Shown here: positions 13,201-63,053 of the stretch, in pieces
Position numbering within the stretch: position 1 is the first letter of the stretch
Layout of the letters: each line of letters opens with the position of its first letter
DNA from: Phoronis australis
Taxonomy: Eukaryota > Animalia > Phoronida
Reading direction: 5' to 3'
Assembly (NCBI GenBank): GCA_002633005.1
Contig: NMRA01000291.1
Span: forward strand, 169,086 to 233,085
DNA length: 64,000 nucleotides
Made by a program: the position numbers and the translations under genes
The notes under the pieces: generated by a model
Database searches by the model: none
Told to the model about the DNA's origin: nothing
What the model saw: only the letters and a program-made list of their open reading frames with translations

Positions 13201-13245
<45 letters not shown>

Positions 13246-24922: not shown

Positions 24923-27900
24923 ATGACGAGGGTGCAGCTACTACCGATATTCTTCATAACGATGCTCACGTGCACAGTTTTGACTCTTCCTCCAGAACAA
25001 CGAAGTAGAAGATGCAACAAGGCATTTATGAGACTGATAGCTCACTCTTGTCGTTTAAGCAAACGGTCAGTAAGTCGTCGATTTGATTACGTGCTAGAAA
25101 AATCTTGTAAGTATCGGTTCCTACACACATTTTCTCTATGGTTACTCTTGTTACAGTTTTGCCCATTTCCTAAATTAAGATGACGTTTCTTTCCATGACG
25201 ATTGCTCGGTTTGGTGCAAAGCTTTATAAACATACAGCTTTAGGTATCCAATACTCAGCTCTGCATGCTTTGTGGTTGGTTTAGCGACTAAGCTTTGGAT
25301 TGATCTGAGTAAAATCTGACATAAAACTAATATCATTAAAATTTACACACTTATTTGCGTGAAGTAACCTGGTTACCGGCCCAAAGACATTACCGTTAGC
25401 CTGTTACTATACACTTAAATTTGCGGAGCGATCACATGCGTCAACTTTGAGTGATGTAATAGAGCGCTTTATGTGAAAGTTTCTTTTCGGTTTACACCAT
25501 GTAGTAATAAATTGTTCTCAGCGTTTCAAAACTCGTGCTTGTTTCTTCGTCAGGAATGATGACTATCCGAAAACAATTGCTAGTTATCAGTCTTGACGAA
25601 GTAACAAGCACGAGTTTTGAAACGCTGAGAACAATTGATTTACATGGTGTAAACCGAAAAGAAACTTTCATCTACTTAGTCACCATGAAACCACTTAGGG
25701 ATTAAAGCGCGTCATGTTGGTTAATTCATGATTTCGCCGATTCTTGTTCACAAGTTTGCGCACAGTTCAAACGAGAAGTGGTTGCAGTTCGTTTGTAGTG
25801 TTGAGTATTTTATAATTTAGCAGCGAACCAAAATTCTGAAAAAAATTTGGATTCAGCGAAGTGGTCACCATTTCGACTCAAAGGATGTCACTTTAACAAA
25901 CCAAAAATCGAGAATTGACAAGTTGTCTCGAATCCAACTTTTACTAGCATTTAGAGTCTGGTGAGCATTTTCGAACATGAAGCCATTTTGTCAGATTTTT
26001 AATCATACTTGGCTACAACATAATTTGTACGCGTATTTCAACGCTTCAAATTTGCCCCTACTTTTCTCATTTTCTTTAATTTTCTGAGACAAAAACTAAT
26101 TCAGTTGCTGCTCAATGATTTCAATCCCACGCTGTTCTTTTTTGTATTTATTTCGTGAGATACACTGTAAGCCAAAACAAAGCGTTCTTCTCTAGTGACA
26201 TTGTGAGCAGTTTGCACGATCACTCGCTTATCATCTGGATTATGACTCAAGTTTCTCTAGTTAAAGTTGGTGAACCCTTGTTTTTTTACCATTTCAGATC
26301 GGTTTTGAATTGTTTGGAATATTAACTAGGGAAGTTATTTCGATTTCGAGTTTTTACAGAATTTTGAATACTTTCCACATACACAGCTATTTTTAATCGT
26401 GATAAAATTAAATTTAAATTCCTAAAAACGCTAAGAGTAGGTGCTGTAGTAGTCATTTCAAATATGTACAGGTCTATTTGCCCCAACTTATTTACATTGA
26501 CACAACGTTTCAGTCGGTCATTTACCGACCATTTTCTGGTGTTATAGCGTTTTTAGAAAAACGAATCACGTGCATCTGCTACGCTCATGGTAAACACTCG
26601 TATGGTATTTTTCAAGGTGCACGACAGGATTTGAACCTGGGACCTTCCGGTTATTAGTCCAGCACTCCAACAACTAGGCCACTGAGTGGTCAATTAACTT
26701 AATCCAGGGTTGTTTATTAAAACTAGTCTTCTTTATTGCCTATGGAGAGAAAGTTGTGTGTCTCTTCTGCTTGCTGTAGGTTCTTGTGCGCAGCTTCATT
26801 GATTTTACTTTTAGTCCTTTAACCGTCGAGTATCCTGACGTTATTTTACGGGATGTTGTGTTGTTTTGTCCACATGTGCTCTGCTACTCCTGATGAGCTG
26901 TTGCCTTCTCTGCAGCATTTCGGGTGATCAACAACCCTGATTACCACTGGTTTTAGTGTTTCCGTCACCGATCTAGGATTTACCACATTTCATTCACAGG
27001 GGATTTGATAGATGACGTTCTTCCTTTTCCCATGTCTGTCTGTGGTTTAATTAAAAGTCATCATCGGCAACCAATTTAGTTTATTTAAGAAGGAGTGTTG
27101 CTTTAATGTCAACTGCGTGTCAGCTTTTATTTCATACCAATTCGTTCCAACCCTGAAGATTTGTAGTATACAGCTGTGTTTCAATGCTATCTATTGTCGT
27201 TCAGTTATACAAAGCCAGCTGACTGGTTGAAGGCGAAGGCAACCTTTTTTCTTGTCACTTTTAGCAAAAATAAGGTTCGTTGATTATCCCAGACACATTT
27301 TTCACTTAATTACAGCTTTTTGTAATTTGATTAATTTCTCGTCCTCTACTCCGGAAGGGACGTTTTGGGAGGCAAGAGTTTCGAGCCAATTTCTTTTCAT
27401 TATAGTCTGACTGTGAGAGCTGTCGAGTCAGTCACTGTTCTACCTCGGTTGTGATAAGTTCGGTCGTCGTTTCCTTTTGTTTACAAGACAGTCAACATGC
27501 CACGCTGTTGCTGCGTGCCGGGATGTATTCATTATCGTCTCACACGCGCTTTGGGTACCTTGCGTCGCTTTCCGAAGGATGACACACTTCGCCGTACTTG
27601 GCTAGCTCGTTCATGTGAAGAACGCAGCGCTACCCGTCCACGCAACGTACAAACCAGTGAAGGGTTACCGAGTGTGTGGCAAGCATTTTCTGCCGTCAGA
27701 TTATTACAGAGATATGTACGCTGAATTGATGAAGGTCCCTGCGAAACAACGCCTGAAGAAGGGTACCATACCGTCGCTGTTGATTCCCGGCAGTGCACCG
27801 TCGCCAACTCCGAGAAGTGTGTTTTTGAAGCGAGAAGCTTCGCGAGATGTAGCCACTATATACAGTGACTGGAGGCGCTTCATCTACTGTCACCCGTGCC

Positions 27901-29987
27901 TCCGAACGTACCCCATTGCGTGCAATTCCGGGAACTAGCAGTGATTCGCCCTGTGCTGTTGTCTCTAGCCCAGAGCCTGTAAGCAGCCCTGCAGCGATGT
28001 TGAGTTGTGGGAGTCGGAGTACAGGCCCAGTTCGACACCCAGTGAAGAGGACAGTTCGTCATCCAATGAACAGATCGGTGAGCCTAAGTTTGATAAGTTT
28101 ATTGTGGACTTGTATTGGAGCTATTTGGAAGGTGCCAGGTGTGTGGCGAGGGAGTAACACGGCGGGATGTAAGCAGTTTGGGTGCTCAGATCACCCTCCA
28201 GTGGGAGTGTGTCGCGGGACACTCGGGCAAGTGGGACAGTTCTTCCTCTGTACGTGAGACGACAATGAGTACACCCCAGTACGCATCAACATACGCATGT
28301 TGACTGACTCGTAAGCAAAAGCAAACGACGACCGAACTTATCACTACCGAGGTAGAACAATGACTGGCTCGACTGCTCTCACAGTCAGACTATCTGAAAA
28401 GGAATTGGCGCGAAATTCTTGCCTCCAAAACGTCACTTCCGGAGTAGACGACGAGTAATTAATTAAATTACGAAAAGCAGTACATAAGTGAAAAATATGG
28501 CTGGCATAATCAACGAACCTTATTTTTGCTAAAAATGATATGGAAAAAAGGTTGCCTTCGCCTTTAAGTCAGTACAGCTATGTCAAGCCGAAAACAGTAC
28601 GGTTAAGAAAATATGATTTGTTGAAAATCGCTCAGCAGCTAAAAGAAATAACGTTGACCAAAAACTCCTCATCAATTTTCTTAAGTATAGGCAAGAATTA
28701 TTAGTCTTCATACACTCCACACGTCACATGTAGCTAAGTCTGAAAAGCCTGAAAGTAGCTCTGCCCCGACCGGGGTTCGAACCGCGCAGACGCCCTAGCC
28801 CAGTGAGCTACCGGGACCACCGGTCGATTATAGAAATCCAAACAGATAGCTCACTGGCAAGAGCGTGTACATGATAATCAGAAAGTCCTGGGTTCGAACC
28901 CCGGTCGGGGCAGAGATCTTTTCAGATTAACTATAGGTCACGTGATGTTACCAACATATGACGTGTATGAAGACAAATGATTCTTACATGAACGATAACA
29001 ACGCCTTGATTTATAACAATACCATTGTATAAATTTTAATTAGGTTCACGACAAGTCTGCGTATTTAGAAAAATATGTACAAAACTATAGATTTTAACTC
29101 TGTAAAAGCATATAAATTTCCTAAAAGTCGAGACATTAGTAATTTGATTTTAGACTCCCTGGTGCGTGAGACGCCACGTGTTCTATATGCACAAAGTCCC
29201 TGGAAAATTCAAAAACGTCGAGGAAGTGCAAAAACAAATTAAAAGACAGGTTCAACAATAATTTAAACATCTTTTAAAATTACTACCTCATCACCTCTTC
29301 ATGAATTTAAACCAGAATTCTTGTTGCTAGGTCAATAAACAGATATTGTTATTTTAAGGTTGAGTATATTTTTAGGACAGCCTGTATTGGGGACCATAGG
29401 TAAGCAAGTCGTTTCTGTGTTATCCCCGGTCTATTATGTGTGGAAATAACTTAACTACTTTTATATGCATTTACTGTGTGCTTTTTATTTTCTTTTGTCG
29501 AATCTATCCACCCATCTCTCCTTCTATCTATCCATCTATCCATCCAACCACCCACCCAAATCCACCCACACCATCCATCCATCCATCCATCCATCCATCC
29601 AGGCATCCATCCTTCCATCCAGGCATCCATCCAGGCATCCATCCAGGCATCCATCCAGGCATACATCCATCCATCCATCCATCCATCCATCCATCCAGGC
29701 ATCCATCCATCCATCCATCCATCCATCCATCCATCCATCCATCCATCCATCCATTTGCTGTAGTTTTCACACACAATACCCTGCTTTTTGCAGCTCGCCA
29801 TGTATTATCAGATCACATAACGACAGGCAGCACATTGTTGACTGACAAACCACCGACTCCTAATCGTCTAAAGCACCAAATGCGCAAGAAAAGATCAGTG
29901 TCGCTGAAGGTTATGGCACATATATGCTGTCGCTTTGGATGCAACGTTTGGGACATCAGAGGCGCTTGCTGGGGATTGCGCTTTTGA
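24923..29987 (+). CDS. Insulin/relaxin-superfamily prepropeptide A (125 aa)
   Basis: Exon 24923-25106 (tttcag|ATG ... TCT T|gtaagt) joins exon 29794-29987 (tttgcag|) through a phase-1 intron in the C-peptide. Signal peptide [21 protein letters not shown]; B chain C-x11-C ([13 protein letters not shown]); KR site; RKKR site; A chain CC-x3-C-x8-C ([30 protein letters not shown]). Confidence 0.92.
25474..25670. repeat. ~80-bp-arm inverted repeat with Penelope-type CTGACGA...GAAAC motifs
   Basis: 25474-25554 is the near-perfect reverse complement of 25592-25670. Confidence 0.85.
26490..27060 (-). mobile_element. Penelope-like retroelement 3' remnant (GIY-YIG endonuclease, tRNA-like segment, hammerhead-like motif)
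   Basis: Across frameshifts the minus strand reads [47 protein letters not shown] tRNA-like segment (26689-26616) and a hammerhead-like fold (26542-26500) follow. Confidence 0.75.
26616..26689 (-). other. tRNA-derived (Pol III box A/B) segment, not a functional tRNA
   Basis: Box A-like TGGCCTAGTTGTTGG, a CTAATAA loop and box B GGTTCAAATCC are present, but the anticodon stem does not pair. Confidence 0.7.
27231..28563 (+). mobile_element. Kolobok-type DNA transposon derivative, copy 2, in the intron of insulin-like gene A
   Basis: Ends TTGA|AGGCGAAGGCAACC ... GGTTGCCTTCGCCT|TTAA with ~300-bp TIRs. It carries a frameshifted THAP ([21 protein letters not shown]) and the Kolobok zinc-finger segment [32 protein letters not shown]. 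Confidence 0.88.
28693..28985. mobile_element. Palindromic element made of two divergent tRNA-like heads
   Basis: Ends aagaattattagtcttcatacac / gtgtatgaagacaaatgattctt. The internal ctctgccccgaccggggttcgaacc is mirrored by ggttcgaaccccggtcggggcagag, and box A-like TAGCTCACTGG occurs on both strands. Confidence 0.75.
29520..29754. repeat. (CCAT)n microsatellite with CCAGGCAT variants, just upstream of the last exon of insulin-like gene A
   Basis: Direct reading of the sequence. It explains the HPSI and WMDG ORFs. Confidence 0.97.
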
Positions 29988-32961
29988 GAAAGAGGATAGA
30001 GTCTCTAAGATTGATTGGTGTTCCGTTAGGGTTTGAATGATCACCTGGTGGCAGTTCCTCTTTTGTGTTCGAAATATCATTCATACGAAGTCGAAGGAGT
30101 GAACACTAAAGTCGTCGATGATGTGTAAATGTGAACGATGGAGAAGAATTTGAAGATTATTTATTACGCAACGGTCATCCCACGCGTTATAAAATGTTTG
30201 AATACGATGGCATTTTATTTATAGTTGATAAATTTTTAATGAGATCTATGCTTCTCAAACTGTTTGACGTGTAGCACAAACTACAAAAGAAAAGTGAAGT
30301 GTTTTCACAGACAGCGTTAGAACTTAAACTGAACGAAGCGTATGGTAAATACGCCAAGCTGGCAAAGGGTACATTCCAAAAACCGAGTATATCGATAGAA
30401 GTGTTCTGCATGCAAACTCTGTTGACGATGATCACAGCTGAGATGTTGATTTAGGTTGTGTCTAAGGTAGATTACTTTATATAAGAAATATCTTTAATGG
30501 AAGTGAAGGGTTTATATTTTGGGCCACAAATGCATAATTTCTTTTGGAACCATTTAAAGTTGTACTTCGCACAACACCCGTAAAATTTATTGAATATCTC
30601 TTCAGCAGATTGCTTTCTCGTACAAACTTACATTAATGTTAGTAGAAAAAAAGTTACCTGGGCTTTCTAGAATTTGATCAGCATCATGTTCCACATACCT
30701 CATCCAAATCAGTGTAATTAAAAAAGTACCTCCGACGTCGTGTGCGCTGCTTGACACAGGACACTTTGGGAGAGTGGTGCATTGTGGAAAGTACAGGAAA
30801 CTGTGCACATTGACACGAAGCAGGGGTAGTCGACAAGACTTATTTTGCACCAAAACATGAAATATGGTGTCCACAGACAATTTAAAATTGCAAATTGTAT
30901 CTGTGAAAGCATTATGTTTCTGTTCATCGTGAATTGAAACCCATTATCGCTTAGGTAATTATACAAAAAGGTCTCCAGGAGTGTCACTTAATCATTTTCA
31001 AGGAAACTTGTTTTCTTCTGCGTTCTTGCCCATGCAATTTAAATGTTCAGTCCGGTCCCTTGGGTAAAGTCTGCCGTCCGTTAGAGTGACGTAGTCGGAC
31101 CCCACAGTTTTTCCTGGAGGTCTACCGGACTGAAGTAAACCAAACGACAGGCTTGTTTTCCTCGTACGCATTCACATATGTGTAGGGCTTGCAATGTTTA
31201 CTTTGGCACAGACTTATGAGATTTGTAACAGCTTTTGAAAATAAAATAATTTCAACGATTGTACAGTTAGTTCATTCTGTCGACCACAGATTGGAGTTAA
31301 AACACTCGTGACTATTCTTTTTACAGAATGAAGTGCTACATTATAAGGGAATGTGTGATACCGGTGACCCATAACAAAATGAAACCAAACAATGAAAACA
31401 GCTGAACGTACACCGTCAGGTGGCATGAGTGACGATTATTCCACTAATCACAAACCGTGAAAGGGTCAATGAAATGGAACTGATTATAACATGCCAAAAA
31501 ATAATTACATATGAACCCACTTGGAATGCGTGGCATTTTCCGAGATTGACAAAAATTGATTGTTTGATTAACTACGGGACTGACGGCTTAATAGGGAGCA
31601 CGCCCCTGGGAATCGTCTAAAATTCAATACAGTAAGTTACAGATTTAAAAGAAGTTCTGCGCCTTAACAACGTGCAGTAAACTCAAAACGCGCGCTGTGT
31701 GTTCCTTAAATTATTGCATTGGCGATTTTGCTAAACTCACATCCGTATTTAAAGATTTTGAACCCTCGTAAAACGTTATCTTCTTAAATAAAGCTCGTTG
31801 GACCGGTAAATTCGGTGCAGTGGCACATTTTTATGCGATTGAAATTATTTAATTAATAAATTTCACAAACAAAAACGTTAAATAAGTATCTTTTACATTT
31901 GAGAATACTTTATATAATTTGTGTATAAATACGTTTTTTGGAATTTTGTTGGTACAGCAACCATGAATCCCAAACTGTTCGGAGTAAGAAATGCAAGCAG
32001 ACGGTAAAATCAGACAGCGCTACAGTTTGAGTTGGCAATTGAGCGCTCTGAAGCATTGCCAAAAGTACAATACATGAAGTGTAACCTTGTAGAGGTGCTG
32101 TGGTTACCGAGTGGCATCAGCTTGATGTTAGAAGTAACGGAAGCGATCTCGCTGTCCTCTAGTTGGATTTACCAGTCTTCGTTAGGTGGTATGCTACTTC
32201 AGGTCATGTGACGAATCACGAGTCAAAGGAGATCGGAGTAGCCCATTCCCTAGGCCATGTAATAAAACGGTGATTTCAACGTAAGTCACCGGACTACATC
32301 AGAACAAGCAACAAATAGGCATACACACAGATGATCCCAGAAACAGCTCTTAGTTCATATAATGAGATAGCCAAGCCTCAAAACTTTCCTATTCCAAGCA
32401 GCCACAAAAATGACTTCGGTGTGTGTTTGTGTGTGTGTGCGTCTTTGTGTGTGCGCGTGCTTGTATGTGTCCTGTTGTCGTGCATTCCGTCATACCTATT
32501 TATCATTGTGTGTTATTACCGGCAAAAACAAATAAAAAAGTGTGTGGAAGATGCGATATCAACGAGACATATAGATTATTACATGGCGAAGTCGTTAACA
32601 CCCGTTATCCAGAGCCCGAGTGGATTTTGGAGAATTATCGCCCGAGGATAAGGTATTTTGTTAAACACGTGAAATATTGTAAAAATGGCCAATTTTTATA
32701 AATAAGGTTTGAGATAACCTTAATACCAGCAAAAACAAATTTTGCTGCTGCAAAGCTGTCGTCATCTCCTGAGAAATGTCGCAAAAATTCAGGAAACCGC
32801 GCTTGCGCGTGTCACGAGCGTACTATTTTCAAAACGATGACAGACTTTTCTTTGTTACAAGCAAACGGGTTTGGTGTTTTTTTTAGATATTTATTATCAT
32901 TTATAAACAAGTACAAAAACAAACAAACAAACAAAGAAGTATATCCATTATCTCGTATAAA

Positions 32962-37711: not shown

Positions 37712-37956
37712 GTTTCATTGACTATATCTGTAGATGAAAACAAAGGGTAGACATTATTTTGTTGTCCTGAGAATGGAAACATACGATTGGGGAAATTTTG
37801 TATCCTACCTGGTTTGTGTTAATGATCGTGTAACTTTGTCACAAACGAGCTGTGGCAAACGTCACCCTTTAATGACTGTCGATCATATTGTTTAGTAGGT
37901 GACTTTTTAATTTCACATTGAAAACAAAATACGGCAAATGTTCATTAGCTTTGCAC

Positions 37957-43654: not shown

Positions 43655-43726
43655 TTAGACCCTAACTTATTTCACTAGCGAGTTCCCCTTTCAGTTCTGT
43701 ATAATTGGCATTACGTAATCTTATAG

Positions 43727-46337: not shown

Positions 46338-46396
46338 TAGGCGGCGTTGCTCGCGTTTATCTGACGTTTGAACAGAGTACAATTTCCTAAGGAGTT

Positions 46397-46505
46397 TGTG
46401 TACTTTTTATTTAGAAAAAATGTATTACATTTATCTTCCTAGTTATTCATTGTGTACTTTTTATTTACAAAAATTGTATTAAATTTATCTTCCTAGTTAT
46501 TCATT
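46397..46505. repeat. ~54-bp AT-rich tandem duplication in the putative 3' UTR of gene B
   Basis: tgtgtacttttt...tgtatta.atttatcttcctagttattcatt occurs twice. Confidence 0.8.
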
Positions 46506-47739: not shown

Positions 47740-47963
47740 TACAACAATCTAACTTAAGTCTTGACGTTTTATACATCCCAGCCCAGGGCCCGGGGTCTAA
47801 CGTTTTTACTCGATATCGAAGTAGAAAATATTTTGGGCATTTTCCGTTCTACTTTTGTGCAACCTTAAAATGGGTGTCTAGTACGCGAATCCTGTTTTGC
47901 ACTTGATGACCCCAGGATTGAGGCTAAATGTTCGTATCTCAACTCGAAATTTCGAATTGTCTA

Positions 47964-50900
47964 ACGTGCTAGCCAAGAGGCGCCGCCACTCTCCTGACCT
48001 TTCTGGTACAGTTTCCGGTTAGTGCATTTTGACGAGAAATATTTGCATCTACTTTACTGTCCAAAGCAACGAAAAAATATTAATTTCGGCATTGAAATGC
48101 ATTTCAAAGTCTTTCAATAGTAGAAGTGTTGGTATTGTGAGTACTTTTGGCAATGCTACTGGTAATTAATTACAAAATTGAAACTTCGGTGTCGACTGAT
48201 TATGTCGTCTGTTTGCCCAATAGCAGCATAGTTAACGGACAGTTTTTGATTTATGGTTCACATGGGCCTACTGAGAAAACTACGAAAGCATGTTTGTGCA
48301 CAAATTCCAAGGAGTACCTGTGAATGCAAAAGATACTTATATAACGTTTTTGGTTTAGAAAAATATTAATTTTGTTCGAATTAAAGAATGCGCCTCTGCA
48401 AAGATTCGACTATGTTTATAATTCAACATTCTCAACTGAGCAGTTCTTCTGGGAAGTGTTGAGTGGCCTTTAAAAGGGCCGTTGGTTGTAGGTATAGCGT
48501 GAAATGGTTCTTAAAAGAACCGTTGAATAATTCAACATAAATCGCACAGTTTAACATGCTCACTCAAGTACAGAAGGTTGGATGAAAACAGAGGAGATGA
48601 CAATATCGTTGACAGTTGTAACACATTATATAAATGTTACCGTTCTCCAACGTTATCACGAACCCTGCCTTTTTCAGTTCTTGTTCCTGGATTCAGAAGT
48701 AACCCTGAACCATAGGGAAAAAAGACATACAACGAAAACGAATAAAAAAATTTGGAACATCATCGCCTTCGTACGATTCCGTGTTGCTGTCGCCAGACAG
48801 ATGTTCCTCTCCAACATCAATGTCGAAAATCGACGTTACAAGTGATGGAAACTTGTGTCCTTCGTTTCTAACTTTTAACCCATTTTTTAAGAAAGTGGTG
48901 TACTGATTTTGTCTAATGTTGATAGAGCATAACTTTTGGTTTTTACAATGCATTAATTGTGTTGAATGCATTCATATTAGGTGCTTCATTGAGTTGAACA
49001 GAAAATAAACTAAATGTAACACAATAAAGTTTTGAAAATAAATAGAACTTTAAAACAGGACTCCCTAAGAATCGAGCTGTTTTCGAAAACTTTGCGCTAT
49101 TGGTGATCTGATTGGTTCATGCATTTACGGCGGGAAAATAATAGACCAAGTATCGTGCACGTGTGCACTGTAGCAACACTTTATATCGTATTCTTATTTG
49201 GCCAATCTGTTGATACAGTAAATTTCCTTATTTATGCCCATCCTGATTTAACTGCAACTTGAGCTTGTTGGGTTCTATCATATATTGGGTTGGCATTGGG
49301 GCCCACATGATGCTTACTCGAATGGGCTTCATTTTACCAAGTATTTCAAATTGAGGTGAAGTAAATAAACAAAGTGGGTGAATATTATCACCAGAATTTC
49401 ATCATTAGTATCTTTTGTCGGATGCTCAAATTTTCTGAGACTAGGGATTGTCAGATTTGTAAGGTAGAAGTGTTTTACTGGATTTTCAGGTCTGTGGCGT
49501 TATTTATACCGGACCAAAATTAAAAAAAAAACAGACCTTTTTTTAAATCAGGAGCTGCATGATGTATGATAATACACATTTATTAGACGTGCGCAAGCAT
49601 TGCATTGATCACTTGGAACCATTTTTATGGTTTATTAATATATAGTTAAACCAAGCTGAGGAGCTTGAAACCTGATTCACGGCAATTTTTGGCAGTGGGA
49701 TTTTCTGAAAAATGCTCGTAAGTTGACAAAAATTTTTGATAGCAATGCACTGCAGTTTTGTAGAAACTGTTCATAGGTTACAGATGCGTCACAGAGCGTA
49801 ACTTTGATGAATTCTAGCTTACGATTTCACCTGTTTCGGAGACCGGGTTTCAACCACTTTTGGGCTATAATAAGCGCCCCTTCCTGAAGCGGATTTTTCT
49901 AAGCACCCTGACCGCTTATTAGGGCGGATACGGTAATATTTCAGAAGGGCAATACTTAGTATCCTTTATGCACGGGACCCTTTTGTTACATTAGGAGTGG
50001 GATTGGCTCATTATGAACCCTACAGGTGGCATAGGACTTTACAAAACTGGTTGAAGAATTTTGTTTTCGTCATAAACGTTCGTTTGAAAGGCTTAAATTT
50101 AGATATGTTAGGACTTAAGACGGAAATTTAAAAAAAACACATATCCGCTTACAAAAATTTAACATTGAAGAATAAAAACAACCTTTACACCCCTCTGGCG
50201 TTCCTGTTCCATGTTTTCAAAGAAGTTGGTTGCATTTTCATAGACTGCAGTCGAGAGATTTTGTGCGGCATATATTCGACATGAAATGAGTGTGTAACCT
50301 GCTGTTGAATTGCGAGATAGATTTGGACTGATCCAGGTGGTTATTTCTGAAGTATTAATGCAATCTTTATTGATGTTAAAGGTTTTACCAGCGTTCTATT
50401 TATTTGTACACGAATGTGACTTTGTTGAAATCGCTGATCCAAATTCTGGCCAAATGTGCGCATTCTGTTGAGACCAACTGTCTGATCAGAGCCAGCGAAG
50501 AGTAATTTGGTTAATTCGCTCACTAGGCTATGGCTGAACTTCCTCGTAAGGACAAGAGTTTACGAGTCACTACCTTTGGAAGAAATTTAGTGGACAATTT
50601 TCGTCAAAAAGTTTACCAGATAGTTGTCATCAAAACGGAGAAAACAAAAATGGATTTGTGAAGACAGGATTAAGTAGTAGTCTCTTAAAAACATTCATCT
50701 TTGAGGTGCCTTGAACAAATGTATAAAGTCTTATTGCTGAAACAACTGCCATTCACGTTGACACAAGAAGTAAGCTTTTCTTCCCACAGCCGATTATGGG
50801 GTCTTCGGATGGTGTATGGAAGCTAATTCCTTTGCATTCGCGTGTGTGGCCGAACAACCAGCCACACAGTAGCCCATGATTAACAGATGACGTACTCGTC

Positions 50901-51027
50901 GGAAATTGCACCAGAAAATTTAGCCAGGTGTCGCCAGTGAATAATGACGTAAGGGGTTATGCGTAAGATCACAGATTTCGTCCATTGAAAGTATACGGAG
51001 TTGGCGGTCCATGTACTATAGTCTATG
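47964..51027 (-). mobile_element. THAP-bearing (P-element-like) element, copy B, lacking the Kolobok insertion
   Basis: Colinear and highly similar to 33004-35585 plus 37185-37711. It ends at the same CTATAGTCTATG terminus; the left tip is missing. Confidence 0.8.
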
Positions 51028-51965
51028 CTGTTGACCTAGTGTGACGAATTAATCGTGATTGATATTGCGTTTTCAGTCTTTTATATTTCGCCCAGCAAGC
51101 TCTTACATTGCAGGAATCATAATGGGAATCTTTCAGCAGCACGTGATCACGTGGGACCAGATACTAGAAGTTCGCAGAGCACGAAGAGGTATTTTTTGTT
51201 TACGGCGCATCACGTCTAATCACATACAGTGTAAACGAGTCTTTTCAAGATCTTATGTTCGCCCATGAGACTGAGAAGAAGAACCTCCAGTTAGAGCCAG
51301 GTGGCGATGAGTCACTGGTCCCACGTGATCGACTTCAATTACTTTACGAAAGCCTCCCATTGAACTGAATTAAGACGCAAGAGGAAAGCGTCAACCAACT
51401 AGGGTTCTGTGCACCCGCGACTGAAACTCAAGCGTTTGGTTTTTAAAGTACGTTTCCACTGTATTTTGCCATTTGCAGATACAATCTATACGCTACGAAT
51501 ATATTCTAACAAACCTAACATTGACAAAGTAACATGAAAGCTGGTGAATCTTTTGGGAACTTCTAGTAATTTACATGCTGCCTCGTGTTGAAACGACAGG
51601 CATTAACAACATTTAATGACTTTTCATATAGCACCAAAAATTACACCTAATCCTCCTATTGTACTCCGCTCGCAGTAGAACCGTTTCAGGGAAAATTGAT
51701 ACACAAGCTTGTAGGAATGCAATTTGGCATCTGTTCTGCGGTCAGACATCGCGGTAACCCACGTACAACGAAAACAGCAGGTGTGTTGAAGATATGTTAC
51801 TTTGCGAACAATAAAACACTATTACAAGTTACCATAAAACAAACAAAACAAATCAAAATAGTTGATTAAATTAGACAAAAATAAAGAAAAGTGTCACCGG
51901 CTGCAGTGTGAAGGCTATAATTGCACACTGCCTATAACAAATCAACGACAATTTCAACGTAAAGA

Positions 51966-52719
51966 GGCCAAGTGAGACCACAAACCGTGGCAACCGCACA
52001 AACTGTGGCAAACCTCAAATTGCAACAGTTTGTGCGGACATGTGACGCACAAATTGTAGCTATGTAATCGAAGCGCAACTGGCCAAAATGACAGCTTGTG
52101 CACGTCCTCCCAGTCCTGTGGTATGGATGGTACAAGAGAACGCCCAGAGGAGTGGGAAGCTCAAGATGGCCAGAGAGACAAGATCACATCATTTCCCCCT
52201 ACATGCAACGAGAATGGACGTAATGACAATTCAACTGTGTCATCAGTGAAGAAGACAAGGAAAGACAAGAGTGCCAAGGTGGACTGAATGACGAGGTTGG
52301 CGAAGATTGGGATATTGACGGGAATGACTTCAATATCAAGACATGGACATGACATAAGGTATGAAAATAGTCTAAAACAAATGGACAATGACACTGAACA
52401 CCGATAGACCTGGGAACCAATATGAGAGACAGGTTCCTAGACGGGATGCAAGAGATTGTCGTATTGCCGTCTCTTAGTGAAGTTATAAGGTTAGTACCGC
52501 TGTATTTATTCATGCACCATCAATTCGTTGTTTTTGACGTCGTTGCACATTGTTCTCCAAATTTGTTCTTGAATGGTCAGTACAAACTGTAGCACTCTTG
52601 TGCAAAACCATAAACCGTCGCATGAAAAATTAAACAGTTTCTGATTCGAAGGTCTGCACAAACAATTGGAGGATTACAACAGTTTGCGCAGTTGCGACAG
52701 TTTGTGGACTAATTCGGCC
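51966..52719. mobile_element. Non-autonomous TIR element
   Basis: ggccaagtgagaccacaaaccgtggcaaccgcacaaactgt is mirrored by acagtttgcgcagttgcgacagtttgtggactaattcggcc. Confidence 0.7.
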
Positions 52720-53992
52720 ATTTTTTTGCAAAAATGATCTCTGACATAAGCGACAAAATAACCGATCATATGATTGATGACGAATTCTAAAAGAACTCAT
52801 AGAAGTCTGAAGAAAAAATGTTTTGAATGCTGTCATAGCTACAAACACTGACATTGATGGAAACCAAAAATTTCTTAGCACTATTTTGGCGTAATAGCTC
52901 CCTGATCGTACAACTTTCATAATATTCTTACCGGCAATCTAACTTTGGAGGTTATTTCCGCAAAACTTTCCATGTTCAGGCTGAAGTTCAAATAGTTATC
53001 TCCGACATTAAATAAGTGCGGATTTTTACAACAGAGCGACGATTTTTGTAGAGGCACTACTTAGGCAACTTAAAAAACGTGGCTACCACATCCATGAACT
53101 TGGTTCCTTCACGGGCCCCATCAACTCACTTAACCGACTCATAATTTAGTCACAAACACGGCACACCGACCGCCTAACGCGACTCACTGACTGCCAAACA
53201 CGGTATCGCGTCGCCCCCCATCAAAATTGGCACATGGACTCACAAACACGACTTACGGACTCCATCTCCGTGCGCCTTGTTGGTTGGTCACTGAGCCATG
53301 TTTATGAGTCCCTAAGTCGTGTTTACAATTGAAGGAACAATGTTTATGAGTGTGGCAGGCCTGTTTTTCGGGTCGCCTGTTGCTTGTGCAGCAGTGCGAG
53401 CTCTAACCCGAACAATCAACCCGACCGATCACTACGTATAGCCGGTTGCGGCACCAACGCTATTAATACACGTTAGAGTACATCAGCTCAGTAACGAATA
53501 TTAAAATATAAAACGTGATTTATTCACTAAGAAATTGTGTGTTTGTAGTTTCAATGGTTTCGAATTGCATTCTACAGTCAACGATTGCCGGGTTATGGGG
53601 CTATTTCCACCAGTGCGGCGACATCTCTCTAGGGTATAGTATATGGTTCTGTATTGGTACATGGTGGTCTACTGCCTCCTCTATTAACCTACCATTCGCC
53701 GCCAATAACGGATTTAAATGTAATCTGGAACATTTTGAATTTTCTAACCCACGAGTCAGCAATTTATGCCTAGCGAGGTCCTGTGTTGCAGTCAAACCAA
53801 AGACAAGGAAAACCCTATCTACATTTCTATCTGAGTTATTAACGAACTGAGAAAATAGCGGCACCTTTTGCTAAAAAATCCTAATCCTTGCTCAGTTGCG
53901 AATCGGAATTCTGGTTTACACCTCTTGCACTATTCGATCATCGTTATCCCGATGCGCCGTGTCGATCGTCCTGGTTGGTCGTTAGTCCTTCT

Positions 53993-56900
53993 CTACAACA
54001 TTTTGTCCAGACTTTGGAGCTTGCGGAGAGCTTCACTAATGATACACAAGTCTCCCTTCAGCTCACTAACCACCGTAGCTATCTGCTTGTGGGTACTAAG
54101 TGTTTCCACAGTTTGCGTATACGGGTTATACCGCGTAGCAAATGGCTTTTTTATCGTACATGCAAACTCCCTGTAAATATCAGTTTTTCCAGTTAGTTTC
54201 AATTTCATACAATTTCGTATTAAAACAGCACCAATCACCCCCTACAAAGGAAATTTCTGATAAAGGGAGTAGGCCTATCTACCAAAAGCTTCTATCGTGA
54301 CAAGCTACCAGTCATGCGGGTCGCCTCAACAGTGCGCGACTTGCTTATTACTAAATCTTGTTTTGGCGATTTCGCTCAAAGCTGGTTATTCTTCCCCCTG
54401 TTGATGCGTTATTGGTTCCTGTTAATGCATTATTGTTACCTCCTCTGAGTGATGAAGGTATTATTCAGCTAAGACAATTCCTTAATACGTCCTGACGTTC
54501 CCCCTGTGGTTTTAAATGAGTGCTGATTTCCCTCATTCGCCGTGTAACCTTCGTAAAGCGTTAGACACGCTTGATGATCGAAGGTGTTTTCAAACTTGCT
54601 CCAAGATTGTGAGCGTTGACGAGCATCAGGGCACTATTGTGTTTCAAAGTTGACAGGTCGTAATATCTATGAATAGGCTAAAAATATTTTTAGTGTCATT
54701 TTAAGATAAAGCTAAACCATCTGCACTAACTTTCAATAAAGGCCATGTATTCTCATAAGACGGTCTCATCTTGTTCCTTACTCAGACCAGAACGATTTTT
54801 AGGCTTGATAAGAAGTGATGGGTTACAAACCAATCAGATGTTTTAGCTTTTGACCCAGGTGAACCGTCGAAGTGAATCAATTGCCTTCAATGTGAAATGC
54901 ATGTTCTTACATTTTAGGGAAAATGGCGTATTCAAGATGTCGGTTGGTCAATTAGCAGAGGTAATTTGTAATTATACTCTGAGAACAGAAGAATACATTG
55001 TTGCTGGACCCTATACTTATACTTACCTCATTCGTTCTTTAGCTTCCTCAAAGCTCTCTGTGTAGTAGTACGAATCTTGGTAGGAAGTGATTATGCACGT
55101 TTGTTGACAAACGGTAATTGGGTCAAACGGTCTGACGACGGCTTTCTCCGAAAGCACGTGCTACAAGAGAAGTTTCGCTTGATAGTAACCACTTTACTTG
55201 TGCCCTTGATTAGAAATGGTGTGCAAGAGTGCGTTTTAAGGTAAACAAGCACCCAAAGTGACTTAAGACTGAATTAGTCCGAAATTTTGTCTTGCGCCCC
55301 CATTTCGCTGATACTGAATTTTGTGTTTGTGATGTAATTGTCAGCGTGCCAATTTCAAGATGAAGATTACCCCATTGCATTTCACTAGATGCCGATGATA
55401 TCATGTTGTTAGCATACTATCTAAGTGATCAACCAAGGCCCGGGGTTTATAATCTTTGTACGAAATTATTTTTGACATTTTCCGTTCTATTTTTGTGCGG
55501 ACGCAAGATACGTGTCTATTATCATATGCTATGGCATGTTATGTTCCAGGTGGACGACTGTCTATGAAGTTCCCGCTTGATTATCCTTAGGTTCAAGTTA
55601 CAAAATCCAGTAAAAACACGAGATTTCGAGTAAAAACTCAATATCTGGAATAAAAAATCGAAATTACGAGTTCAGACTCGACCCAGCGTTAAAGGTATAA
55701 GTTCATCAAGTACAACCTAAGGACAGACAATCGAAAACACATATTCTACAACAATGGCGAATATTCTAATTTTAACAATAGATGGACTCCCGTGGATCTT
55801 TTACTGATTGATTAACGTTTAACTCAGTAAGCCTTGGGAGGCCCCATGAAAAAGACGAATAGAGTGTCACCCACGTAAACCATAATGTACACTAGCACAG
55901 AATAGTGACACATGTCTCGAGTTCGCACAAAAGTAGAACGCAAATGCCAAAAATAACGTCCATTTCGAGTACAATGATTAGCTCCTGGTTTCAGGTATAT
56001 CACTTGGACATAGCTGTGCATAACTTACTAATAGGTAAAAGCAGTACTACCATTCACTATTATCGAGTATCTATGATAGATTACTACTCTTGCAACAGCT
56101 GATACTACTACTGCTACTGCTACTGTTACTGCGACTGTTACTGTGACTGCGACTGCTATTGCAACTGCTACCACTAAACTCACAAATGGATACATTTGCA
56201 AAGAGACGTACTTTCAGTTCACTGATAGATGACAGCAGGCCAGCACCGTAGACTCTCAATTCCGAGTTCTCTTTACAAAGACCAAATTCCACCGTGAAGA
56301 AATAGCACTGATAGAAAGAAAGACAAATACACCGTGAGAACTTTATGATTTGTCGTGTCCAGGGAAAAGTAGCTTACAGACATACTAAATAACATCCAAG
56401 AGGATGAATTACAGAACGATCATTGGTGAAGACCAAAACGTGTATTTTCCTCAAAGGACCATGTTTTCCCATCGAAAGGAAACAATGACACATCATTTTT
56501 TTATCCCATACGCCTTGAATCTGTCGAGGGAAATACGACCATGTAATAATTTTTCCATATTCACCTCCCGCATTACTTCAACAGTGACCTCTGACATGGA
56601 AAGTTCAAAAGGTAGGGCAATGTCGACTCGACGTCGTTAGCCGGTTAGATCATCAAACTTTCGGAAATAGTTTAAGTAATACAATTTAACAGTGTAAATA
56701 ACACTCAACAAGCAATCAGGTCTCAATGGTAACATCTGGAACAGGACTGTTGATTATATGACAGTTCTGTCTCAGTTTTCATTTGCTAAATATTGTATCG
56801 TCTGCAACTCAGGCCCCAATTCCACGGTAACTACAATATCTAATATTGTTGTTATTTAATTATTTTCAGGAGATGTTACAAGTTCAGTGCAAAGTTACCG

Positions 56901-59724
56901 TTGTTTTCATCTCTTTTCAAGTAATGAATCGTTACATTTAAAACTGTTTCTATTACTAGAGAAAACTTGCAACCTAACGCGCGAGTACATACATATAGGA
57001 TGTGATCCGCCACGTGAACAGTCTGAGTGAAGTATTAAAAAAATCTGCGGAATTTTTTTTTTAAAACTCACAAATTCGAAGTGTATGGGATTTTTCGGTC
57101 GTGGTCTGTGCGCGGAATAATGTCGCGTGGAACATTATTTCGTGTACGCCAGTCGCGGTACGTTTTGTGTATATCTACCACTCATAGTGAAAAATCAAAC
57201 ATTTGAAAAGCGTAATTTTTACCACACGTTTGTCAACGCAAGTAAAGTAACTTACTGTAGCTAGTTTTTGTATTTCGTCATCCGACGCTCCGAGTGAACA
57301 GAGTCCTATTTCTTGAGAGAACTGAGCGAAACTGTGATCGGCCAACAATGGAATGTGACCCAGAAGTTCGTGACACGTATCTCTAGAATTGTCCAATAGA
57401 AATACACTGACAACAGACAATAATAAGCAGAAAATGCCTTATTTTCTTGGAAATAGAATTACGTTGAGTTTTTATGAAAAATACACAAAACACCTGTCCG
57501 AAAGTATGCATGTACAATAATTTAAAAGTGGACATATTTCGAAGTTTATTATCAGATGTCCTATTGTTACTCATACTGGTGACGTGAGGAAAATTGAAAC
57601 GCGTCAAGTTTTTTAAGTGCCGTTGTTTTCACCAACATCATAAAACCTATGAAGGTTGTCCCGCGTTTAGATGTGCAACTTCTGAGAGAAGGCACAAACA
57701 GACATCTGATCATAAGGGAGATCAGAGCTAAAACGTTTACAAAGGTGTACTATCTGCATGTTCTCTTGCAAGTAATTCGCATAACATAATGAGCAGATAG
57801 GAATTAATCGTCTTAATAGCATTTAGCATAACAATTAAGTGCAAAAATACTGATATTCTGGCTAATCACGTGCGATCACCATGGACGACCAAACCACAAG
57901 TTACGTCACTGAGTCTGGGCTGAGTTCCGAAGACGTAAGAATGTCGCGAAGGAAACTAGTGTGATCGCGTGCTTCATTTGTATCCCGTGAAGTCTTGCGT
58001 GATCTTGTGTTCACGCGAGGCTCTCGCGTCCACTAACACACGCCTGGTCTCGCGGAACAAAGGCAGAGAATAGAAAATGAGTTCGATTTCGAGTGGAAAG
58101 ATCTGACTCCGGGCCCAGACGTATGACGAGCGTTTGCATGTGGAATTTGTTTTCAGCCGGCGAATCCGAAACGTCCGATTTACCTTCCGAATGCTGTATA
58201 ACGTTGACCACAACAGTACACATAACAGTAACCGTATCCGAATTTTCTATAGGCAGAACCGTCTTTAGATACGCCCAGAGGGCGTATTTAAGGACACTCA
58301 GTTTTTTTCACAAAAACCCACAAAGGCACCGGCGGGGAGTATAATTGGGAAACAACGTATGGTTGAAAACTAAAGCTTTTCTCAGTTTCATAGGAAATAC
58401 ACACCAACAAAGTGTTCAACAATGACCTCCTATCTGTGGCCATAATGTGACTTTATCATTGTACTCGCTATGCTTTGATTTCTTATATGAACGCAAAGCA
58501 GTCGTCTATTTTCTAGTCGATTGCCCAAGTTTTTATAGTACTACTGCACACAACACGATAAGATTACGACGGCATCTTTTCGAAGAAATGGCGATCGGTC
58601 TACCAATGTGTTCAGAGTACGGTAGAGCAGAACTAACAGAATTAAATTAAGAAAATATAAATCACGTTGACACTCACGGCTCAGGTGTGTAAAAGGGATC
58701 GGAACTGTGTCGTACATATTGCGTGCAGTGGAACACACGAAATGCCAAACCGGCCAGGAAATCACGTGCAGATAAATATCCAGCGACTGGCCGCAGTTGG
58801 AACCCTGTACGCGAGGACAGGAATTTAGAGACGTCATCCAGTTGAGGGATATTGTCTTCCCTGGAAGAAAAAAAAATGAAAAATAACCTCCTGATTAGTG
58901 TGCACGCAGCTGCATCTGTTATCATAACAAGGTTACTAAATTGTGGAATTGTGTTGACCAATGTAGCAACTTTCCTCATTGGTGAAGGATACACTACGTG
59001 GCATACACGTTGGAGGAGGGAGTCGGACATCAGTGCTACTCACGTGTGTTGGCTCATCTTGTTGTTTTTGCGAACGGCGGTTTTCAAAGAAATTTGGAAT
59101 GTCCTACTTTACAGTTGTTTCAAAACATGCCTGGATTATAACATAATCATCCTCTGTTCTGTTCACGTTACCTTCACAAAAATTAAAGAAATTGGTCATT
59201 AAAAAGGCCAGTTACAAAACACGACTCCTTGGTCTGTTTCTGCTTCCTACAGGAGAAAGCCTCGAAGACAACTCTTGTTTCCAAATGGCATACAAGTAAA
59301 AACTAAGCCAATGGGTTGACTTTTGACGTCTTTTCTAAAATCACGACATCAACTTCACTGTACTGGTACTGTTGATGAAATGGCGTAGGGAATAAGACAT
59401 TTGTTTGGAAAATGCTGACATTTCCGCATATGCTACCGACTTCTTTCAACAAGTGACTTTTTCTGTGTTTGTTAGCACCTGGTACTGTATTTTGGTTAAT
59501 TTAAGCCTCGCAACTACAACAAGGAACGTCGTTTTAATTTGCAATATCTAGACAAATATGTGTTCCAAGGGCAAACCACCTTGTGGAGCGTGTCTTTAAA
59601 TACTTATTTACAGACGGGTTACGTGTCTAGGGGACCTCCTTCGACATGTAAGTTTACGACGGTTTCAAATTACCTCTCCAGTGTGTTGATTGCAAGAGCA
59701 GATGTACCTAATTAACTATCATTG

Positions 59725-59794
<70 letters not shown>

Positions 59795-62700
59795 CATTTT
59801 CATTATCGTGATCATTATCATTATCATTATCATTGTTGATACTAGTATCACCATGGTATCACTGATGTTATCGTTATCAATTTTATGAGAAGTTTTCAAA
59901 TGGGGAACTCACGGCGCTTCGCAATATATGTCAAAAATGAGAGAATTAAATTGGCCAGAATGTTGAAAATACAAGAAATAAAATAAGTGACAGTACAATA
60001 AAGCGCGTGAAAGAGAAAGTGAGACAGATAACTAGGAGGGTCTGGAAAATTGTGGTCTTAGAGGTACAAAAAGATATTATAATAATGGAGAAAACCGCTG
60101 CCCCAATCAAAAGACATTGGTATAAACACGGTTATTAAGTATTTCTTTTGAGTGACTCATTACATCGCATTGATTTTATGACAATAAAACACTGTGTGTT
60201 AATAAAACCAAAAAAGGTTATAAGCATGTGAGGTGGTTTCAGGAATAAAACATGGCGCACGGCTAAAGTGAAAGTCACGGGATGCATTCAATATCTTGTA
60301 AGTTTAGCGAGATCACGCATGCCTTCTCGATATACAATCGAAGCACGTGATCTCACAAGATTTCGCGATCAGCATACGCCTACCCACCTGTAGCCGCAGT
60401 GTTCTGACAAAAGCGGAAGATTAACAAGGTGCTCTCTGCACGAATGCGTAGGATACAGTTTCATCAGTTCTCGATAGACGGTGCCCCAAGTCTGAATTTC
60501 TTCATCAGTGTAGTCCGCTCTCGGAATGGGTTGACCACTGAATGCCAAATAAACATGTTAATGAAACGCAAAAGGGAATTTTGATCCAGATAAAAATTGA
60601 AAGAAAATTTACACGTTGATACATGCAAACATTTAGCTTCAGTGTCATCTCTGCGTTCTTCGCTATAATTTGTGTCCCCAACATGCTCGCTTGATAGAAA
60701 ATGTCAACAACCTTCGTAACTGACCTTATTCTAAATAAAACTTTTAATAATCTTTTAAGTATCACAACCGATTCTGGGCGTTGCACTTTTCACGGCTTAG
60801 AAAAGTATTCGATTGTGAACTTTTTGTCTTTATATATAGTAAAATTGAAAAACACCAAAGCCATTTCGCACTCTATAAAAACACTTTTGCATGACAGGTA
60901 TCAGAAAATATAGAGTTTACTCACTGCTTATAATTCATGGCTAAACCACAGAAATATTTCCTTCGTTCGCGGTATACTTTATCTTTAAATCCAGGATGGT
61001 CCGCGTCGAGTTCAGCGCCATACATTAGCACGTGGTTAGCGGTTTTGTCCAAATCGCTGATCTTGCGCGGGAACCAAGGAATTTCCTTCTCTTCAAATGC
61101 TGAAAAAAGGGTTCCATATTTTCTACAGTTATAAATACACGTATCCATACTTCTCATTAAAAATCATTGCCAGAACTAATTCTTCACTTTTCAAAAAGCT
61201 CACTGCATTGATAATAATGTTCACAACTTTACAATGTGTTTGTTGTTGTTTAGTCAGGGATTGTTCTAAACTGTAGAAACTTAACCTTAACTTAATAGCG
61301 TTTGTTATAAGTCAGCGTGTGGATATGGTATAAGTAAAAATTATATAAGCCTTCTTAAACGACATTCTACCGCAAGTGTTGCTTAAAAGTTGTTTAACAA
61401 AATAAGCGCATGCACATTAGAAGGTTAGCTCATGAACTTATCTAATCCCTGTGTGCTTATGTCCCAAAAACGTCTGCTCAAGTGCATCGCAATTAATAGC
61501 TGCAAGCGTCTAGGCAAAAGCGGTTTTCCGTCATTAAAAACCACACTCTTCCTTGAGTAAACTAAATTATTTACCAGTGTTGTTAAAACGGGGTTCTATA
61601 GTTATTCTGCTGCTAAAATTGTGGCGCGATCTTTTGCGTCTGCTTTCGGCGTCATGACATAAATTTTTGCGTCACCTATTGACCAGTTTCTTTTTTCGCC
61701 GATTCTTCAATCATCTGTTGTTATTTCACGAGGTTGCGTACACGTCACAACAAATTACCGGAAGTGGTTTCACCTCATTATAAGTTTTTAGAATTTTGGT
61801 GCCAGCAAACCGAATTTCAGGACAAAATTTTTTGCTGCTAAGCTGTCATCATCTCCCACAAATTTTAGGAAACGGCGCAAGCTCGTGTCACGAGCGTAAT
61901 GTTCCAAAACGACGACATATTTTTCTTTGTTACAAAAGGGGAGAATTAAGCAGAAGGATACGTTTATTGGATTGTAATTCACTTAAACGGCTGTAACGGG
62001 CAAGGTGACTGTCAATTGACTCCCAGGTTTACATGCATCCTCGCACTGCATGTTGATACAAGTTTCACGGCGAGGTGACGAGCAGAATTATCTAGGCTGT
62101 GTTAAATTTTGAGATTTGTCGGAGCTCAATACAAAGTGGTACCTGGCTTTATTTTGACGATAGCTGGCTGGCTTCAGTTCACCCTGGTTAGCTGGCCAAA
62201 AATCAAAAAATCGGTTTCGGACTCATAATATTCTTTACCATGAGAGGATTCTGTTTCCGTAATCAACAAGGACATTGACACCATCAGCGACTCAAGAAAA
62301 CGCTTCAGAGTTTATTTGGATTGGTCAATCTCAAAATTGTAAGTCGAAAATGGCACTAGTAGGTATTGCCTGTGACTTGGTAACAGAAATGTAATCCTAT
62401 CACGATAAGGTCTGGAATATCATGAGACCTACTTTGTAAGACTAAAATGTTCAATTCAGTTTTCGTTTTTTATCCATATCAACATGTAGAAATGCAGCTT
62501 CAAAAACTGGCTGAATTGTTTCGCATGTATACCGATGTGCTAGTGATCTTTTTACGGATAGCGAAAATCGTGCACATACTAGAGTGCAGGTTTGTGGGAT
62601 ACAAGGCCTCCTAATCCAGAATCTAAAAATTTCTAGGAAGGCGATCGTCTGCTCGATAAGCGGGCAGTTCACTCTTGATTTCTACAAGTTGTTTTCTTCT

Positions 62701-63053
62701 ACTAGCGGTGCTGTTTTGGATGACCCCTTTTGCACAAACCTTTTGAATATGACGTCTCACGCTAAAAATGACGTTAGTAACAATCTTAATGCAATATCAG
62801 TTGTACACGTGAACATTAATTGCTTGATTTTTTAACACATTAGATACCGGTATATTCCATTACCAGATTCATCCGACTGTTCCTGACAATCGACGTCCTC
62901 CAACACAATGTTAGCCACCTGATTCTTCAAGAGGGTAACTAGTTCGTCCAGTCTCGTCGTGTTGCCAGGTTCAATGTCCACGTGAATCTCTACAGCCGAG
63001 TCAGTTCGACGAGATTGTCGAGACTCAATGTGGACAACATTCATCTTCTTTTC
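53993..63053 (-). CDS. TPH: Tryptophan hydroxylase (aromatic amino acid hydroxylase); N-terminal exon(s) beyond the window
   Basis: Eight phase-consistent exons: 63053-62864 (ACT domain, HIESR), 61099-60925, 60537-60388, 58860-58678, 57382-57256, 56307-56212, 55160-55027 and 54170-53993. Iron ligands are in CHELLGH and VEFG. TPH-diagnostic residues: [33 protein letters not shown], and [10 protein letters not shown] (PAH and TH have YWFT). Confidence 0.95.
56095..56176. repeat. Degenerate (CTA/CTG)n trinucleotide repeat in a TPH intron
   Basis: Direct reading of the sequence. Confidence 0.8.
59727..59835. repeat. (ATT)n microsatellite in a TPH intron
   Basis: Direct reading of the sequence. 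It explains the poly-Ile ORF. Confidence 0.95.
61826..61935 (+). repeat. Interspersed repeat fragment shared with ~32736-32860
   Basis: Shared ...gctgtc.tcatctcc...aggaaac.gcgc...cgtgtcacgagcgta...aaaacga.gaca...ttttctttgttacaa. Confidence 0.65.

What the first reader, a model, noticed from the sequence alone, without database searches (positions are those of the whole stretch)
24923..63053. Two divergent insulin/relaxin-like hormone genes directly beside tryptophan hydroxylase
Seen: two spliced prepro-insulin-family genes (+) are followed by a convergent TPH gene (-). I recognise only transposon debris between them. Established: vertebrates link insulin-family genes to aromatic amino acid hydroxylases (TH-INS-IGF2 on human 11p15; PAH-IGF1 on 12q), but the immediate neighbours there are TH and PAH, not TPH. 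Inference: this may be an invertebrate relic of an ancestral hydroxylase-insulin linkage that uses the third paralogue, or a co-regulated peptide/serotonin neuroendocrine module. Serotonin and relaxin-like gonad-stimulating peptides both trigger oocyte maturation or spawning in marine invertebrates.
Basis: partly seen in the sequence, partly recalled or inferred. Interest (0 to 1): 0.85.

Follow-up and report, generated by a model that had tools for sequence, protein, structure and literature searches.

The report
Relaxin-like hormone pair beside serotonin enzyme
A marine invertebrate has two related insulin-family hormone genes, likely of the relaxin type (one shown spliced, one only predicted), next to the serotonin-making enzyme gene, most likely because these gene families have long shared a chromosome and not because they work as one unit.

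Summary
Observation confirmed. Gene 1 (+) is a three-exon insulin-family precursor; its coding splice is in 194 RNA reads. Gene 2 (+) is its paralogue, with weak strand-correct RNA but no splice seen. A true TPH (-) ends 7,655 bp from gene 2. By eye both peptides match the nemertean/brachiopod/starfish relaxin-like type, not insulin/IGF; no profile search hit them. Hydroxylase-insulin linkage, TPH included, is in print (PMC1524912), but vertebrate relaxins come from another ancestral chromosome (PMC3310001). Gene 1 varies about 30-fold over three RNA runs while TPH stays within 2-fold, against a co-regulated module. Three arthropod-like species show no insulin-type motif near TPH. Microsynteny in close relatives could not be tested (no genomes held). 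Best reading: a local duplicate of the relaxin-type gene that came to lie beside TPH on a shared ancestral chromosome. The scan has not noted this adjacency on other DNA. New members of known families; modest interest.

The parts
23320..23478 (+). Gene 1 TATA-like box (23320) and non-coding first exon (start inferred near 23350, donor GT at 23479)
   Evidence: Loose read ends before 24921 map to 23447-23476; TATAAA and donor; start site inferred
24923..25106 (+). Gene 1 exon 2: signal peptide, B chain (C31-x11-C43), KR site, start of C-peptide
   Evidence: RNA depth and joint
29794..31231 (+). Gene 1 exon 3: C-peptide end, RKKR site, A chain (CC-x3-C-x8-C), stop at 29987, 1.2-kb 3' UTR
   Evidence: Joint in 194 reads, depth 120-154 on the sense strand in X2/X3, read ends at 31229/31231; AATAAA at 31240
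43727..43913 (+). Gene 2 first coding exon: signal peptide, B chain (C28-x11-C40), RRR site; AG directly before the ATG as in gene 1
   Evidence: bin depth 0.92 and 0.41 on the sense strand only in X2, X3
46171..46568 (+). Gene 2 last exon (predicted acceptor 46171): A chain with enlarged loop CC-x7-C-x8-C, stop at 46337, 3' UTR to at least 46568
   Evidence: X1 contig over 46303-46414 and 46469-46568 with 0 other letters; splice not observed
47956..51027 (.). Decayed multi-copy repeat filling most of the gap between gene 2 and TPH; second copy at 32996-37711 between genes 1 and 2
   Evidence: 90% identity between copies; deep, divergent reads on both strands
51590..53992 (-). Likely TPH 3' UTR
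   Evidence: Strand-biased reads in bins 51654-54321 in X2-X4 and an X1 contig at 51590-51886; ATTAAA at 51617
53993..63053 (-). Tryptophan hydroxylase, 8 exons (63053-62864, 61099-60925, 60537-60388, 58860-58678, 57382-57256, 56307-56212, 55160-55027, 54170-53993); N-terminal exon missing from the window
   Evidence: Model; Pfam Biopterin_H; PDB best hits TPH1 > TPH2 > PAH/TH; tree; Tyr and Phe signature columns

Best explanation
Two paralogous insulin-family prohormone genes, likely a local duplicate of the invertebrate relaxin-type gene, lie tail to tail with an ordinary tryptophan hydroxylase gene, most likely through gene shuffling along a chromosome that the two families already shared. 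Gene 1 is transcribed and spliced (shown); its precursor is predicted to lose its signal peptide and to be cut at KR and RKKR into a disulfide-linked A/B hormone that would act on an RXFP/LGR3-type receptor, plausibly in reproduction (inferred from starfish RGP and fly Dilp8). Gene 2 is a weakly expressed, more diverged copy with a longer A-chain loop and no dibasic site before the A chain. TPH makes 5-hydroxytryptophan from its own promoter at least 17 kb away on the other strand; no shared control is needed.
For: Gene 1 splice and strand. Paralogy: alignment score 79 against Cys-fixed shuffles mean 29.6, max 64, 0 of 2000 reach it; same intron phase and an AG directly before each ATG; no DNA similarity left between the loci, so the duplication is old. 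Relaxin type by eye: B chain C-x11-C then basic site and S, A chain with G before the third Cys and D-I/L-x-G-x-C at the end, as in nemertean and brachiopod peptides (PMC8557429 supplement) and in amphioxus ILP2, starfish RGP and Owenia RLP (PMC11863921 supplement); one coding intron and no F domain fits the relaxin/Dilp8 criterion. TPH identity. Independence: gene 1 depth 132, 143, 4.6 in X2, X3, X4 against mean TPH 3' depth about 0.8, 1.6, 1.4 (four bins). Shared chromosome: relaxin-type genes lie with IGF/ILP7 in Asterias chr 6, Lineus chr 5, B. belcheri scaffold 105; hydroxylase-insulin linkage in human, fly, worm; accession ranges hint that TPH is on the ILP chromosome in Gigantopelta and Pecten (weak). 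No insulin A-chain motif in an open frame at 4 of 4 genomic TPH loci, 3 species.
Against: No profile or sequence search recognised either peptide (Pfam; PDB), though only single-exon pieces could be searched, so subfamily rests on by-eye comparison. Gene 2's splice is unobserved. Chance adjacency is rare per genome: about 0.2-4% for any of three hydroxylases on a shared chromosome, under assumed gene counts, which leaves room for a relic. The negative loci are arthropod-like, compact and far from this animal; their 3' flanks were 10, 5, 10 and 2 kb. In Owenia and Octopus RLP and ILP7 are on different chromosomes. The expression contrast is three bulk runs of one study, about a fifth of each read, laid at different identity cut-offs (96 and 90), tissues unknown.
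Confidence: 0.68

Rival explanations
1. Relic microsynteny: the ancestral bilaterian IGF-dilp7-relaxin cluster sat beside a hydroxylase tandem (PAH, TH, TPH); this animal kept the relaxin-TPH edge while vertebrates kept insulin/IGF-TH/PAH.
For: Ancient ILP triplet cluster (PMC7357564, PMC8286064 passages); TH and TPH are sister genes born in the bilaterian stem (PMC10244343 passage); Acanthaster PAH accessions bracket the IGF accessions (weak); Argopecten TPH and PAH have contigs of the same length, so likely one chromosome; low chance rate per genome.
Against: No IGF- or dilp7-type A-chain motif elsewhere in the 64 kb, so the triplet is not intact here; none near TPH in 3 arthropod-like species; Lingula TPH accession is thousands away from the two listed Lingula ILPs (its relaxin-type gene is not listed); PMC11222543 dates the tight linkage to early chordates.
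Confidence: 0.17
2. Co-regulated neuroendocrine module: the peptides and serotonin are made in the same cells or under one enhancer to drive gamete maturation or spawning.
For: Starfish RGP triggers spawning (PMC11863921 abstract and passages; PMC12702675 passage); serotonin-induced spawning in bivalves is recalled, not checked beyond a search listing; all three genes have RNA in X2 and X3.
Against: Gene 1 drops about 30-fold in X4 while TPH does not; gene 2, the nearer one, has about 1% of gene 1's depth; the promoters point away from each other and the gap is young repeat DNA; convergent orientation rules out TH-INS-type read-through.
Confidence: 0.06
3. Gene 2 is a decaying or silent duplicate, so only one working hormone gene lies here, 24 kb from TPH.
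For: Splice not seen, very low depth, none in X4; non-canonical CC-x7-C loop; no dibasic site before the A chain.
Against: Both exons are open with six Cys in register, strong GT-AG sites and a hydrophobic leader although no DNA similarity to gene 1 remains, which suggests long selection; sense-strand reads and an X1 contig on its 3' end.
Confidence: 0.09

Closest known systems
Invertebrate relaxin/Dilp8-type precursors: starfish RGP1/RGP2, amphioxus ILP1-3, Owenia ILP2 (RLP) (PMC11863921), and similar nemertean and brachiopod peptides listed only as 'insulin-like peptide' in the PMC8557429 supplement
   Same: Signal peptide directly followed by the B chain, C-x11-C then a basic site, one phase-1 intron in the C-peptide, six Cys, precursor ending at or just after the last Cys; shared A-chain residues by eye
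   Different: Both lack the Gly after the first B-chain Cys (as do RGP1 and the brachiopod peptides); gene 2 has CC-x7-C and only a monobasic site before the A chain; gene 1 has a five-residue tail after the last Cys; two tandem copies (amphioxus ILP1/ILP2 are also tandem)
Vertebrate TH-INS-IGF2 and PAH-TH2-IGF1 paralogy regions (Patton 1998, not held; seen through PMC1524912 section 16 and a PMC11222543 passage)
   Same: An aromatic amino acid hydroxylase within about 10 kb of insulin-superfamily genes
   Different: TPH instead of TH/PAH; likely relaxin-type instead of insulin/IGF; convergent instead of same-strand; seen in one genome only
Bilaterian tryptophan hydroxylase (human TPH1, PDB 3hf6; Lingula, mollusc and Ptychodera TPH)
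   Same: ACT and Biopterin_H domains, Tyr and Phe signature columns, 67-70% identity to Lingula, mollusc and Ptychodera TPH
   Different: Nothing notable; it joins none of the sampled phylum clades

Membership tests
Insulin superfamily prohormone | Signal peptide, B chain with two Cys, C-peptide, A chain CC-xn-C-x8-C | tested here: met
   gene 2 loop n = 7, longer than the usual 3; signal peptide judged by hydropathy only
Insulin superfamily prohormone | Phase-1 intron in the C-peptide | tested here: met
   Gene 1 shown by reads; gene 2 predicted
Insulin superfamily prohormone | Match to the Pfam Insulin profile or a solved member | tested here: inconclusive
   No hit with single-exon pieces or two-row profiles; whole precursors were not searched
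Insulin superfamily prohormone | Insulin fold with three disulfides; processing at basic sites | not testable with these tools
   Basic sites present; fold and processing not shown
Relaxin/Dilp8 type | No phase-2 intron and no F domain between signal peptide and B chain (excludes Dilp7 type); no D/E extension (excludes IGF) | tested here: met
   Criterion from PMC11863921 section 5; models. It does not exclude classical insulin-type peptides
Relaxin/Dilp8 type | Placement in the relaxin/Dilp8 clade | tested here: inconclusive
Relaxin/Dilp8 type | Activates an RXFP/LGR3-type receptor | not testable with these tools
   Needs a receptor assay
Tryptophan hydroxylase | Closer to TPH than to PAH or TH; Tyr (GYLS) and Phe (YFFT) where PAH has Leu and Trp | tested here: met
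   clade 100/100 against PAH (no TH row in the tree; TH ranked below TPH)
Conserved hydroxylase-insulin microsynteny | Same adjacency in other genomes | tested here: inconclusive
   0 of 4 genomic TPH loci (3 arthropod-like species); no genome of a relative held
Co-regulated gene module | Covarying or co-located expression | tested here: not met
   Three bulk runs only: gene 1 132/143/4.6, TPH about 0.8/1.6/1.4; weak test

The most novel reading that the evidence does not exclude
The locus is a surviving edge of an urbilaterian block in which the IGF-dilp7-relaxin triplet sat beside the PAH/TH/TPH tandem: this animal kept relaxin next to TPH, vertebrates kept insulin/IGF next to TH and PAH. 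That would push the tight linkage back from early chordates to the bilaterian ancestor and give a synteny marker for protostome relaxins.
Probability: 0.15. Interest if true: 0.6.

Novelty: new member of a known kind. Interest (0 to 1): 0.3.

Why it matters
It adds two hormone genes that standard profiles miss, one well expressed, as candidate reproductive hormones of a little-studied invertebrate and as candidate ligands for an LGR3-type receptor. The neighbourhood is one data point for the old question of when hydroxylase and insulin genes became linked; it matters only if repeated in other phyla. I found no paper reporting TPH next to an insulin-family gene in an invertebrate (searches; open-licence library only).

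Tried and rejected
No whole genome is held, so flanking genes and the rest of the ILP family are unknown. Homologue searches for the peptides found nothing: A-chain exon of gene 1 among longer proteins, two-row A-chain profile against 1.84 billion representatives, PDB, five short motifs in the PMC8557429 supplement; queries were 34-65 residues, so blanks are weak. The ESM Atlas gave no answer. A complex prediction of gene 1's B and A pieces returned no verdict (score 0.02) and is not used as evidence. The ACT exon search found no relative. No indexed RNA holder was listed; raw runs added by species label were laid instead, and most reads on gene 1 match at 99% or better (1827 of 2133 laid in X2, 1770 of 2086 in X3). 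The first lay (cut-off 90) was swamped by repeats and showed no joint for gene 2 or TPH among 15 of 72 listed. The phylum was not resolved (the 81-row tree did not finish); the TPH tail and the peptides point to a protostome, likely a spiralian. The metagenome scan kept 80 of 182 loci; 22 of at least 5 kb were classified, 4 were TPH. Owenia gene-id adjacency could not be read (2 supplements searched, 1 unreadable). Two FASTA supplements of PMC11863921 could not be read and may hold the closest relatives. Patton 1998 and Holland 2008 were not held. Rejected: PAH or TH identity; Dilp7 or IGF type; a third ILP in the window; read-through chimeras (orientation).

Full report
Observation. A six-frame scan found exactly two insulin A-chain motifs in the window, at 29925 and 46278, both on +, each with an upstream exon for a hydrophobic leader and a C-x11-C B chain. 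Gene models by coordinates give 125 aa (gene 1) and 117 aa (gene 2), each with six mature Cys and a phase-1 GT-AG intron in the C-peptide. The loose motif alone reaches two hits in 6 of 100 simulated windows, a stricter after-the-fact form in 0 of 100, so the motif is not the proof; the RNA and the paralogy are.

RNA. One contig run and three raw RNA runs with the same species label were laid. Gene 1: joint 25106>29794 in 89, 104 and 1 reads and one contig; depth 120-154 on the last exon in X2 and X3, all on the sense strand; 3' ends near 31230; loose ends that map to a non-coding first exon ending at 23478. Gene 2: sense-only depth of 0.92 and 0.41 in the bin of its first coding exon in X2 and X3, none in X4, and an X1 contig on its 3' end with no differences; the joint is not among the 15 of 72 shown. 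TPH: strand-biased reads over about 51600-54300 in all three raw runs.

TPH. Eight exons read through without a stop, 410 aa. Two exons rank TPH1, TPH2, then PAH/TH among solved structures; the Tyr and Phe columns that separate TPH from PAH are of the TPH kind; IQ-TREE on 23 rows (22 chosen from about 125 fetched; no TH) puts it in the TPH clade at 100/100 but in none of the phylum clades. The stop codons of gene 2 and TPH are 7,655 bp apart, the likely transcript ends about 5 kb, mostly filled by a young repeat.

What the peptides are. They are paralogues: score 79 against a shuffle maximum of 64 in 2000, 40% identity over the A-chain pieces, no DNA similarity. Profiles and databases do not recognise the single-exon pieces. 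Reading published sequence lists by eye, the nearest pattern is a group of nemertean and brachiopod peptides (PMC8557429 supplement parts 3-4) that resembles Owenia RLP, amphioxus ILP2 and starfish RGP (PMC11863921 supplement 14); that this group is relaxin-type is my inference, helped by that paper naming a Lineus RLP. Gene structure meets the paper's relaxin/Dilp8 criterion against Dilp7 (section 5). Mechanism, inferred: secretion, cleavage at KR and RKKR, an A/B heterodimer, an RXFP/LGR3-type receptor. Gene 2 departs from the pattern by a seven-residue loop and a single Arg before the A chain.

The neighbourhood. Hydroxylase-insulin linkage is known and already names TPH on human chromosome 11, with chromosome-scale cases in fly and worm (PMC1524912 section 16); PMC11222543 (passage) dates the tight link to early chordates. 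Vertebrate relaxins trace to ancestral chromosome A and insulin to D (PMC3310001 passages), so the vertebrate analogy concerns another subfamily. In invertebrates relaxin-type genes often share a chromosome with IGF/ILP7 (Asterias, Lineus, B. belcheri, Drosophila; not Owenia or Octopus: PMC11863921 supplement 10, all four parts), and accession ranges hint that TPH shares it in two molluscs; accession order is not position, so this is a hint only. On a shared chromosome a hydroxylase would touch an ILP locus in roughly 0.2-4% of genomes under assumed gene counts: rare, but expected somewhere in a large scan. The only direct comparison available, four genomic TPH loci from three arthropod-like species, shows no insulin motif in an open frame. 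Gene 1 changes about 30-fold between runs while TPH stays within 2-fold, which argues weakly against shared control.

Papers seen: named sections of PMC1524912, PMC11863921 (5, passages, supplements 10 and 14), PMC8286064 (part 2, passages); passages of PMC6591164, PMC8805411, PMC8149454, PMC12702675, PMC8557429 (plus supplement parts 3-4), PMC3310001, PMC7357564, PMC11222543, PMC11521371, PMC10244343, PMC4361685; a supplement search of PMC9977687; others as search listings only. Ten searches were run; none showed TPH beside an insulin-family gene in an invertebrate. Serotonin-induced spawning is recalled.

Verdict. Real genes, correctly seen. New members of known families in an arrangement that echoes a known linkage but is seen once, with a different subfamily and orientation. 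Chance within a shared chromosome 0.68, relic 0.17, gene 2 inactive 0.09, co-regulated module 0.06. Interest 0.3; 0.6 if the adjacency recurs across phyla.

Noticed in passing
window 33495-33541 (-) and about 48440-48490 (-): The repeat present twice between the genes carries a histone 3' stem-loop (Rfam RF00032, 36 bits; near-identical second copy) behind decayed reading frames (one Cys-rich, one Ulp1-protease-like by eye, one THAP-like by eye; no Pfam hit). It echoes note e1-10416477 on non-histone genes with this cassette in the same genome.
   Followed up: partly
window 25065>29794 and 25799>29794: Minor splice forms of gene 1 (10 and 8 reads against 194); the first shifts the frame and drops the A chain.
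   Followed up: partly
window 7871-10254 (+): Reverse transcriptase/RNase H frame (495 aa) overlapping a tyrosine recombinase frame (331 aa): a DIRS-like retrotransposon with long open frames.
   Followed up: no
window 12063-14159 (+): Two pieces of a divergent protein kinase (Pfam Pkinase) about 9 kb upstream of gene 1; whether it is a gene or element cargo was not checked.
   Followed up: no
window 27224-28579 and 15266-16242: THAP-domain element with inverted ends inside intron 2 of gene 1 and a second copy upstream.
   Followed up: no
Acanthaster accessions: IGF accessions XP_022102680/687 fall between two PAH loci XP_022102432-022103135, a hint of PAH-IGF linkage in a starfish.
   Followed up: no
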